Assembly (NCBI GenBank): GCA_963702025.1
Contig: OY969699.1
Span: 768,001-832,000, forward strand
Direction: 5' to 3'
From: an uncultured bacterium
GTDB lineage: Bacteria; Babelota; Babeliae; Babelales; Vermiphilaceae
DNA: 64,000 nucleotides
Positions 30,001 through 33,000 of this stretch are shown here, one piece after another; position 1 is the first letter of the stretch, and each line of letters opens with the position of its first letter. Position numbers: made by a program.

Positions 30001-33000
30001 AAATACAGTCTGATTGAAGGTGAATATCGCAAACGTGAACTTGCGCCGGCTCTGGATCTTCTTGTTACCGCCGGCATTGCACATAAAGTTTTTCATTCAG
30101 CGGGCCAAGGCATACCCATTGGTGCCCAAATGGATCTACAAGATTATAAAATTGTATTTCTTGATGTTGCATTGAGCCAAGCAGCACTCGGGCTAGATCT
30201 GGCCGGCTGGTTTTTAAATCCTTTGACTGAATTTAGCAATAAAGGTTCGCTCCTTGAATCATTGGTGGGACAAGAATTACTTGCCTGTGGCGACCCGTTT
30301 AAACAAGATCATCTCTATTACTGGCACCGCGAAGCGCGTACAAGCCAAGCAGAAGTTGATTATCTTATACAAGAAGGTGAGCTAATCATACCAATAGAAG
30401 TAAAAGCTGGCTCAGGAAAAACGCTTAAAAGTCTCCATATGTTTCTTGAAACTCACGCCAAATCGCCCTTTGGCATCAGATTCTCAACACAAAACTATTC
30501 ACTGTATGAAAACATCCGTTCATATCCGCTCTATGCTATTGCACATGCGATAGGAGGTCCGGAAATCAGGCGGGCGGTTAATTCTTTTTTTCACTCATCA
30601 TAAAAAGAATTATTCTCGTTTTTTCAACGTCGGAAATAGAATGACATCTTTAATCGAAGTAGTATTGGTCAACAGCATCGCAAGCCGATCAATACCAACC
30701 CCGACGCCCACCGTTGGCGGCAATCCATATTCAAGCGCATGAACATATTCAGCATCATAATGATGCGCTTCCGCATCACCGCCCGCCCGAGCATCAACTT
30801 GCTGCTTAAACCGTGAGGCTTGATCAAAGGGATCATTAAGCTCATTAAAGCCATTGGCAATTTCCATGCCTGCAATAAACATTTCAAACCGCGCGGCAAA
30901 ACGTGGATCTTTTGCATCCCGTTTTGCAAGTGGTGAAACTTCAATAGGAAATTCAGTAACAAATGTTGGTTGTATCAACCGATGCTCAACAATTTTTTCA
31001 AATAACGCATAGATTTTTTCACCCCATGAAGCATTTTTATTTGCCATGGTGATGTTATTTTCTTTTAAGCGTATATCAATAACTGCGGGTGCCACATCGG
31101 CATCAGCGTAATGGCCGTATTCCAATACCGCATCTTTGATAGTGGTACGTTTAAACGGTTTTTCAAAATCGATGGTAAAATCACCAAAGGGAACTTGTAA
31201 AGTGCCACATACTTTTGTGGCAACAGCGCGGAACATATCTTCCACAAATCCCATGATAAAGTGATATTCATGATATGCCATATACATTTCAAGCATAGTA
31301 AATTCTGGATTATGGCGCGTTGAAATTCCCTCATTTCTAAAATTACGGTTTATCTCATACACGCGCTCAAAGCCGCCCACAACCAATCGTTTTAAATAGA
31401 GTTCGGGTGCGATCCGCAAATAAAAATCACTACCCAAGGCATTATGGTGTGTTATAAATGGACGCGCCGCGGCACCACCGGGAATGGGATGCAGCATTGG
31501 CGTTTCCACTTCCATAAACTGATGGCCATCAAGATAACCTCGCACTAAACGAATCAGTTGCGAGCGCTTGATAAACCGTTGTCGACTTTGCGCATTCGTA
31601 ATCAAATCCAGATATCGCTGCCGATAAATAGTTTCTATATCCTGCAAACCATGAAATTTTTCAGGCAATGGGAAAAGACATTTGCTCAGTAATTGAAATT
31701 CAGTAACTTTAAGACTAATTTCACCGGTCTTTGTTTTGAATGAACTGCCTTTTGCCCAAACAATATCACCAACATCGATAAACTTTTTAAATTGTTCGTA
31801 TACAACGCCCAGCTCATCCTCTCTGAGATACAGTTGAAGTTGGCTTGTTGCATCTTGAATCACCACAAATGATGCTTTGCCAAAATGGCGAATCACCCGA
31901 ATGCGACCGGCAACCGTATATTCTTTTGACTGGGTATCCGAGAATTCAGCATGAACCTGTTGGGCGGTCCCATCCACCTCTTTTGTGGGTGGCCATGGGC
32001 TGATGCCTGCAGCTTCCATTGCTTTAAGTTTTTCTAACCGAACATGGTGCTCAGGGCTATCATCACTTTGCGTGACTTCAGGTATGGCTTCCACTTTAGC
32101 AGTTGTAATTTTATAAGGAGACTCAGCCAATTCAATTTTTTTAAAGGGATTTTGTTCTACAAAATGGTTATCTTTTTTAAGAGTAATAGTTGGATTTTGC
32201 TCATCAAGAAATGCAACGGTGACCGTGCCGCCACAATACTTTTGAATAAGTGATGCTAGCTCATTGGTGGCAGCTTCTAAAAATTTTTGATCAACGGGTG
32301 GTAATATTTCTAATACAAGAAAAGCATTACGGGTTTGTGGAGTAATTTTTGTGCGATCAGCTTCTTTCCAATTCCATCGGCGGCAAATGGCGCCATTCTC
32401 ATCTTTATAAAAGACTTCGCCCTCGTTGGGAGTTTTAGCCTCTTTTTCACCCAATAAAATCGTAGGATTTTCATTTTTGCCAGCAAAAGTAAGTTCGATA
32501 TCACCTTTTATGGTATCCAGGTCTTCGCCACCTGCAGGCAACATATATTTAAGTGAAATAATATTATAAATATCAACCAGGGAATTTATTGATCTAAACG
32601 GCGCTCTTTTAATAACCCTACTAAGGAGATTTTCAATAGAAGATAAATGTTCTTTTGGCTTGGCCCCAAATTTTTTATATGCTTCGCGCCATGTTGTGAT
32701 AGAGGGATGTTGGTTTAAGGTATCATGAGTTAAGTTGGTAACAACTTTTTGTTGCTGTTGCTGTAGTAAATCAACGATTTCTCTGGTTTCCTTAGTATTA
32801 TTAGTATCTTTTGCAATAACAATACCAATACGAGCACCAGGGTATTCCTTAAAAATTCGTGGATTTATTTTAAACTGCATAGCAAGTCCTTAAATCAGAT
32901 ATAGTGTCTCAACAATTTCTTAGTATAGAGATTTTACCCTTTTTTTCTATTGGTAGGTCTACGCTCCCGGCTATGCCTACTTGACAAAAGCAATCAGCCA

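What a model noticed while it worked through the whole genome (the two positions that open the first line are those of the whole stretch)
30610..32880. Lysyl-tRNA synthetase fused to a CtdA-type (B3/B4) aminoacyl-tRNA deacylase domain
The only LysRS of the genome (g00822, class II, 756 aa) carries a ~230-residue N-terminal domain that is a close homologue of the free-standing canavanyl-tRNA(Arg) deacylase CtdA (B3/B4 fold of the PheRS editing domain), with the residues shown to matter in Salmonella CtdA kept (N, G, the C166 equivalent, E at the Q173 site, V for I189). LysRS is regarded as having no post-transfer editing domain, so this predicts a cis or tethered proofreading activity on a basic amino-acid analogue. 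The fusion is patchy: 4 of 8 genomes of the genus and 4 of 70 other Babelota sampled have it; the same domain is also fused to class I LysRS and to ArgRS in other uncultured bacteria.
Evidence so far: Pfam B3_4 64-217 (8e-30), tRNA_anti-codon 321-398, tRNA-synt_2 415-752; LysRS core 53% identical to enterobacterial LysS from residue 273. PDB sequence search with residues 1-273: 9mkl_A 'B3/4 domain-containing protein' E 2e-29, 9f7e_A 'CtdA canavanyl tRNA deacylase' E 1e-27, PheRS beta only E 0.01. Key residues N105, G116, C166, Q173, I189 from PMC12449066 (passages read, call 54) map onto N106, G117, C166, E173, V189. 98 database proteins share the domain in fused form: 79 class II LysRS, 5 class I LysRS, 11 ArgRS, 3 other; among the 79: N 63, G 62, C 60. 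Genus: fused in G000, G004 (with TGA stops), G005, G007; unfused ~505 aa in G003, G006, G008, G009. Phylum sample: full-length match in [...]
(Added by a program. Inside this text positions count along the whole contig: contig position 768,001 is position 1 of the stretch shown here. "Call 12" and the like, gene names such as g00115 and contig names such as C1 are that model's own, and its searches are not shown. The text may have been shortened before it was handed on; [...] marks where a part breaks off. The agent that wrote the report below was given it as the finding of a first reader that could run no searches.)

Follow-up and report, generated by a model that had tools for sequence, protein, structure and literature searches.

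The report
Lysyl-tRNA synthetase carrying CtdA-type proofreading domain
This uncultured bacterium makes its only lysine-charging enzyme as one protein with an intact copy of a tRNA 'eraser' enzyme, which suggests an untested error-correction step that lysine synthetases are not known to have.

Summary
Confirmed. ORF 30610-32880 (-) is one 756-aa frame: a CtdA-type B3/B4 domain (1-233), a partly disordered linker and the genome's only LysRS (class II). The model matches CtdA at TM 0.84 (PheRS 0.62). The domain is under purifying selection within the genus. It is fused in 22 of 261 Babelota genomes, mostly as an old fusion lost many times, with further independent gains. Correction: 14 of the 80 class II fusions are C-terminal. 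Related domains sit on both LysRS classes, at either end, and on ArgRS; more distant subfamilies sit on MetRS, ProRS, TrpRS, TyrRS and PheRS-beta. The acidic CtdA pocket occurs only with LysRS or ArgRS (65 of 112 versus 0 of 20). Best reading: tethered post-transfer deacylation of mischarged tRNA-Lys, with Arg-tRNA-Lys the leading candidate (about 50% for the tRNA-Lys reading overall). Rival: trans-editing of canavanyl-tRNA-Arg. No activity is shown. I found no paper describing it; this scan noted the same fusion in at least eight other genomes.

The parts
30610..32880 (-). lysS fusion gene, 756 aa, one reading frame
32182..32880 (-). CtdA-type B3/B4 deacylase domain, residues 1-233
   Evidence: Pfam B3_4; 9mkl and 9f7e by sequence; AF2 model pLDDT 94; Foldseek TM 0.84 to CtdA versus 0.62 to PheRS-beta
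32524..32568 (-). Pocket motif 1: Y105, N106, S109, G117, G118, E119 (CtdA Y104, N105, S108, G116, G117, E118)
   Evidence: roles from PMC12449066 and bioRxiv 2024.11.30.626143
32308..32385 (-). Pocket motif 2: C166, R167, R168, W169, K172, E173, V189, E191 (CtdA C166, R167, R168, W169, R172, Q173, I189, E191)
   Evidence: Glu at 173 occurs in the active C. perfringens CtdA
32131..32181 (-). Ordered extension after the domain, residues 234-250
   Evidence: pLDDT 84-89 in the full-length model
32056..32130 (-). Flexible linker, residues 251-275
   Evidence: pLDDT under 50 for 258-274; sequence variable among Babelota fusions
31687..31920 (-). OB-fold anticodon-binding domain, residues 321-398
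30625..31638 (-). Class II LysRS catalytic domain, residues 415-752; active-site positions nearly invariant among Babelota fusions
32887..32891 (-). Shine-Dalgarno-like AAGGA, 6 nt before the ATG of the domain; none before in-frame starts at 251, 263 or 288
33898..34554 (-). Fe/Mn superoxide dismutase, conserved upstream neighbour of lysS in fused and unfused relatives
34650..34928 (-). DivIC/FtsB septum formation initiator, conserved upstream neighbour

Best explanation
The protein is a normal class II LysRS with a tethered, catalytically intact CtdA-family aminoacyl-tRNA deacylase that proofreads the synthetase's own product. (1) Shown: fold, pocket residues, flexible tether, purifying selection. 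(2) From the literature: E. coli LysRS mischarges tRNA-Lys with Arg and other amino acids and cannot remove them; CtdA hydrolyses canavanyl-tRNA strongly and Arg-tRNA weakly, above 1 uM, unless EF-Tu or ArgRS shields it. (3) Inferred: the tether holds the deacylase at high local concentration next to newly charged tRNA-Lys, before EF-Tu binds. The acidic pocket (E119, E173, E191) takes a long basic side chain, and Y105/N106 support ester hydrolysis. The likeliest substrate is Arg-tRNA-Lys; a guanidino or lysine analogue on tRNA-Lys is about as likely. Lys-tRNA-Lys must be spared (untested). The benefit is conditional, which fits the frequent loss.
For: Pocket complete in the window (papers). 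TM 0.84 to CtdA. Domain dN/dS 0.06-0.12 in genus pairs, dN equal to the LysRS core. Y105 and N106 kept in 22 of 22 Babelota fusions. Repeated fusion to LysRS: among 134 long homologues, 91 class II (75 N-, 16 C-terminal), 21 class I (8 N-, 13 C-terminal), 18 ArgRS, 4 other. The LysRS label needs 10 changes on a 97-row domain tree, at least 5 forced by strong branches. The window's strongly supported clade (28 rows, SH-aLRT 99) holds 22 LysRS fusions of three architectures, 6 free proteins (2 directly upstream of lysS) and no ArgRS fusion. Three different domain subfamilies are fused to Babelota lysS (G000, G175, G023). Acidic pocket in 47 of 88 LysRS and 18 of 24 ArgRS fusions, 0 of 20 others (thinned set). 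ArgRS fusions mostly carry G118A or C166V (16 of 18) against 10 of 91 class II LysRS fusions and 0 of 120 free proteins, as expected if only the ArgRS-tethered domain must avoid Arg. LysRS mischarging with Arg without deacylation: PMC5370406, PMC4173786. No diaminopimelate decarboxylase family match in the genome, so amino-acid pools are probably set by the host.
Against: No assay. The pocket is the same as in free-standing relatives, whose only shown strong activity is on canavanyl-tRNA-Arg; activity on Arg-tRNA is weak and blocked by EF-Tu. Only 22 of 251 Babelota genomes with LysRS have the fusion, and a close sister genome lacks it cleanly. All eight pocket residues are kept in only 14 of 22 Babelota fusions, and the domain diverges about twice as fast as the core in two pairs. 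Of 73 free-standing close relatives, 1 has lysS and none has argS in the fetched flank. LysRS attracts many passengers: of 52 long representatives, 13 B3_4, 8 HD, 6 DUF2000, 3 tRNA_bind. 41 of 88 LysRS fusions have a different pocket, so no single substrate covers all. G118A/C166V is also common in class I LysRS fusions (10 of 21), so it may be lineage-related.
Confidence: 0.5

Rival explanations
1. The domain is an ordinary CtdA that clears canavanyl-tRNA-Arg (made by the separate ArgRS) in trans; fusion to lysS only gives constitutive expression.
For: Pocket matches the characterised CtdA-1 enzymes and 119 of 120 free relatives. The genome has an unfused ArgRS and no other CtdA. The tether is flexible. 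Sister subfamilies are fused or adjacent to argS.
Against: It does not explain why LysRS, of both unrelated classes and at both ends, is the commonest partner (112 versus 18 ArgRS of 134; 11 versus 6 of 36 in per-genome samples). No guanidine riboswitch in the window. Canavanine is a legume product; these bacteria live inside protists (abstract start of PMC12172432).
Confidence: 0.27
2. The domain serves as an extra tRNA-binding module that captures the CCA end and raises charging efficiency; hydrolysis is not needed.
For: Basic surface residues K74, R88, K91, R167, R168, K172, K178 are present. LysRS also picks up OB-fold tRNA-binding domains (PMC5370408). B3/4 domains join many synthetases.
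Against: Buried pocket residues are conserved (N106 in 72 of 75 N-terminal and 16 of 16 C-terminal class II fusions), and pocket type tracks the partner synthetase, which binding alone would not require.
Confidence: 0.12
3. A neutral or decaying passenger fusion: a neighbouring gene lost its stop codon and is being purged.
For: Many losses, some between very close genomes; pocket decay in 8 of 22 fusions.
Against: dN/dS near 0.1 and dN equal to the core in this genus; domain and core share 17 of 20 strong splits, so it was retained for a long time; repeated independent gains.
Confidence: 0.07

Closest known systems
CtdA, canavanyl-tRNA(Arg) deacylase, CtdA-1 clade (PDB 9mkl, 9f7e; PMC10018355, PMC12449066, bioRxiv 2024.11.30.626143)
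   Same: Fold including the CtdA-specific helical insert (TM 0.84), pocket residues Y, N, G, E, C, E/Q, V/I, E and the basic rim.
   Different: Fused to LysRS, not free-standing; 28-30% structural identity; no riboswitch found; partner synthetase charges Lys, not Arg; activity untested.
B3/B4 editing domain of PheRS beta subunit
   Same: Same fold family, a cis-editing module attached to a synthetase; shared Asn.
   Different: TM about 0.6, 13-18% identity, different pocket. The genome keeps its own PheRS-beta with B3/4.
Class II LysRS (LysS/LysU) and known LysRS fusions (LysX/MprF; OB-fold B2 fusions in Microgenomates LysRS, PMC5370408)
   Same: Complete OB plus catalytic core above the lysS cut-offs.
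   Different: Known LysRS has only pre-transfer editing; the published appended domains I found are not B3/4 deacylases.
INS/YbaK/ProXp and AlaX editing families
   Same: One scaffold that occurs free or fused and has diversified in substrate (PMC12449066 discussion; PMC7373986).
   Different: Unrelated folds; here the B3/4 scaffold appears to have radiated onto several synthetases.

Membership tests
CtdA-1 deacylase | B3/B4 fold with CtdA-specific insert, closer to CtdA than to PheRS | tested here: met
CtdA-1 deacylase | Y104, N105, G116, E118, E191 (essential by mutagenesis) | tested here: met
   Y105, N106, G117, E119, E191 (papers)
CtdA-1 deacylase | C166 (absent in CtdA-2), Q/E173, I189 | tested here: met
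   C166, E173, V189 (conservative for I)
CtdA-1 deacylase | Free-standing single-domain protein | tested here: not met
   Fused in one ORF; no internal ribosome-binding site
CtdA-1 deacylase | Placement in the published CtdA-1 clade with characterised members | tested here: inconclusive
   No characterised CtdA sequence was in my trees; assignment rests on residues and fold
CtdA-1 deacylase | Hydrolyses canavanyl-tRNA(Arg) | not testable with these tools
   needs an assay
Class II LysRS | OB domain plus class II core above lysS model cut-offs | tested here: met
   TIGR00499 622 bits versus 427.6
Class II LysRS | Lysine and ATP site residues intact | tested here: met
   Positions chosen from recalled LysU motifs; invariant or nearly so in Babelota fusions
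PheRS beta editing domain | Part of a PheRS beta chain, with His/Gly at the PheRS 265/318 sites | tested here: not met
   G117 and E173 at those sites (mapping); pheT model 29.6 bits versus 402

The most novel reading that the evidence does not exclude
LysRS has acquired a true post-transfer editing domain that removes Arg (or a basic analogue) from tRNA-Lys, and this is one case of an undescribed radiation in small-genome symbionts in which B3/4 deacylase subfamilies with partner-specific pockets were grafted onto synthetases lacking their own editing domain (LysRS-I, LysRS-II, ArgRS, MetRS, archaeal-type ProRS, TrpRS, TyrRS).
Probability: 0.4. Interest if true: 0.85.

Novelty: new variant of a known kind. 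Interest (0 to 1): 0.66.

Why it matters
LysRS is described as lacking post-transfer editing although it mischarges tRNA-Lys with Arg. A natural LysRS with a tethered deacylase makes that gap directly testable. It also addresses the open question in the CtdA literature of why CtdA keeps weak Arg-tRNA activity and occurs in organisms unlikely to meet canavanine. The published CtdA phylogeny kept only 180-260 aa proteins, so fusions were excluded by design. Partner-matched pockets would give a set of new editing specificities to test.

Tried and rejected
Assembly artefact or chance read-through: rejected; 66 other N-terminal fusions share the architecture. 'Fused only to basic-amino-acid synthetases': rejected for the wider family. 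Relaxed lysine site in the core: not seen. Riboswitch control: no Rfam match near the gene. Promoter-like sites are at chance level, 10 versus 8.8. Complex prediction of domain with core: no verdict. Earlier notes on relatives of this locus: none. Literature: nine searches found no paper describing a B3/4 or CtdA fusion to LysRS; subscription journals are mostly not searched. Supplementary Table S2 of PMC12449066 has one row named 'Lysyl-tRNA synthetase, class 2' (Alteribacillus persepolensis); I could not check its length, and a 234-aa free relative carries the same label (P0120). bioRxiv supplements were not seen.

Full report
Observation. Window 30610-32880 on the minus strand is one 756-aa frame with Pfam B3_4 at 64-217, an OB fold at 321-398 and a class II core at 415-752. 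The lysS models pass their cut-offs. A Shine-Dalgarno-like AAGGA lies 6 nt before the first ATG, and none lies before in-frame starts at 251, 263 or 288. The genome (1.6 Mb, one contig, 95% complete) has no second copy of the domain and no other LysRS that I could find, a separate PheRS-beta with its own B3/4 and an unfused ArgRS. Same-order genomes carry Babeliales/Dependentiae record titles.

The domain is CtdA-like. Sequence hits are 9mkl (E 1.9e-29) and 9f7e (E 1.3e-27) against E 0.012 for PheRS-beta. The model of residues 1-235 (pLDDT 94) matches CtdA at TM 0.84 and PheRS-beta at 0.62 or less. I read the Results, Discussion and bioinformatics methods of PMC12449066, one of five parts of bioRxiv 2024.11.30.626143 and passages of PMC10018355. 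Residues found essential there (Y104, N105, G116, E118, Q173, E191; C166 as a modulator; I189) map to Y105, N106, G117, E119, E173, E191, C166 and V189. Glu at 173 occurs in the active C. perfringens enzyme. The full-length model has confident domains, a disordered stretch at 258-274 and pTM 0.47, so no fixed domain arrangement is predicted.

Distribution in Babelota. 28 of 261 genomes hold the domain: 22 fused to lysS (one, G007, with a frameshift in the catalytic part), 1 cut by a contig end, 5 free-standing. LysRS was found in 251 of 261. Four of eight genomes of the genus are fused. A superoxide dismutase gene lies upstream in 8 of 20 fused and 11 of 20 unfused loci fetched, so this is the ordinary lysS locus. 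Fused and unfused cores interleave on the LysRS tree. Among 65 N-terminal fusions, 17 of 20 strong domain splits are shared with the core tree and one conflicts. This fits an old fusion with many losses and some recombination; the trees cannot prove direction. G129 and G034 differ by a clean indel of about 800 bp covering domain and linker. G175 and G023 carry different domain subfamilies (38% and 30% identity), which points to separate gains or replacements. Domain dN/dS is 0.06-0.12 in the genus pairs with dN equal to the core; in two other pairs the domain diverges about twice as fast. Y105 and N106 are kept in 22 of 22 fusions, all eight pocket residues in 14 of 22.

Wider pattern. Two searches for long proteins (the second scored only 7999 candidates) gave 134 homologues: class II LysRS 75 N-terminal and 16 C-terminal, class I LysRS 8 and 13, ArgRS 18, other 4. 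All 36 intact long frames were identified: LysRS 11, MetRS 9, ArgRS 6, ProRS 4, TrpRS 3, PheRS-beta 2, TyrRS 1. Pockets differ by partner: the acidic CtdA pocket is in 47 of 88 LysRS and 18 of 24 ArgRS fusions and 0 of 20 others (N-terminal Babelota rows and free rows were thinned at random). On a 97-row IQ-TREE tree (quick mode, LG+G4), Met, Pro and Arg fusions each need one change and Lys ten (five forced by strong branches); the window's clade has 22 LysRS fusions, 6 free proteins and no ArgRS fusion. Kin share labels and deep branches are weak, so this shows repeated association, not co-evolution.

Results against. LysRS carries many passenger domains: of 52 representatives over 600 aa among the top 150 hits, 13 have B3_4, 8 HD, 6 DUF2000 and 3 tRNA_bind (the profile favours B3_4). 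Of 73 free-standing close relatives only one has lysS in the fetched flank. The best 120 of 2284 free relatives have the same pocket as the window, so the sequence shows no change of specificity. Most Babelota do without the domain.

Mechanism. E. coli LysRS mischarges tRNA-Lys with Arg, Thr, Met and others and does not deacylate Arg-tRNA-Lys (passages of the review PMC5370406; PMC4173786); the general review lists only pre-transfer editing for LysRS (passages of PMC7373986). CtdA hydrolyses Arg-tRNA only above 1 uM, is blocked by EF-Tu and ArgRS, and loses this activity with C166A. A tether would supply the local concentration and act before EF-Tu (inference). In line with this, 16 of 18 ArgRS fusions carry G118A or C166V against 10 of 91 class II LysRS fusions, but 10 of 21 class I fusions do too, and the effect of those changes is untested. 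I give 0.5 to proofreading of mischarged tRNA-Lys, 0.27 to trans-editing of canavanyl-tRNA-Arg, 0.12 to a binding-only role and 0.07 to a passenger.

Known or new. It works like CtdA and meets the CtdA-1 sequence and fold tests, but is not free-standing and has no shown activity. The three CtdA papers contain no 'fused', 'fusion' or 'LysRS' in their main text, and the published phylogeny kept only 180-260 aa proteins. Nine library searches found no description. The nearest printed precedent is an OB-fold B2 domain on CPR TyrRS and LysRS (passages of PMC5370408). AARS Online (PMC11580382), PMC5388404, PMC3532385, PMC13149037, PMC8001834 and PMC12546413 were read as passages and list no such fusion. 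This scan has already noted the fusion on other genomes: eight LysRS notes and one ArgRS note; one is marked as partly failed in a later check, without detail. These notes are not independent support. Verdict: real, a new variant of a known kind, mechanism plausible and directly testable; interest 0.66.

Noticed in passing
L205, L206, L208, L239 (ProRS); L209, L211, L213-L215, L217-L219, L237 (MetRS); L207, L212, L240 (TrpRS); L230 (TyrRS); L210, L216 (PheRS-beta): Distant B3/4 subfamilies with distinct pocket motifs are fused to synthetases other than LysRS and ArgRS; L240 has a YbaK-type tRNA_edit domain, a B3/4 domain and TrpRS in one frame.
   Followed up: partly
protein P0248: Class I LysRS carrying an N-terminal AlaX-like region (below cut-off) and a C-terminal B3/4 domain, i.e. 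two editing-type modules.
   Followed up: no
protein P0266: A eukaryotic transcriptome LysRS-II with a degenerate N-terminal B3/4 domain; origin not checked.
   Followed up: no
L101:4001-6614 (= L173) and L176: Free-standing intact CtdA-type gene directly upstream of lysS in two archaeal genomes; in L101 lysS is interrupted and ends in DUF2000.
   Followed up: partly
L191-L202, L222: A free-standing subfamily with a changed pocket (no Y/N pair in most) often lies beside argS in the phylum of G262.
   Followed up: no
proteins scanned: Class II LysRS often carries HD, DUF2000 or tRNA_bind domains; P0277 and P0326 carry these together with B3/4.
   Followed up: partly
L141 and L142 (G132, G131): Synonymous divergence is 0.09 over the domain but 0.51 over the core, suggesting recent recombination across the domain.
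   Followed up: no
L131 (G007), L112 (G002), L110 (G006): The lysS reading frame is interrupted in these genus members (frameshift or stops), probably assembly errors.
   Followed up: no
window 24787-28724 (-): Two tandem PLA2_B lysophospholipase-family genes; one similar gene also lies upstream of the fusion in G023.
   Followed up: no
window 29227-30603 (+): AAA_14/DUF4143 ATPase converging on lysS; in G006 a homologue follows lysS in the same orientation.
   Followed up: no
G000:C1:182482-182838 and 192053-192477: ARAGORN calls two tmRNA genes; one is probably spurious.
   Followed up: no
L085: The record is titled Gammaproteobacteria, but genome size and gene context look like Patescibacteria.
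   Followed up: no
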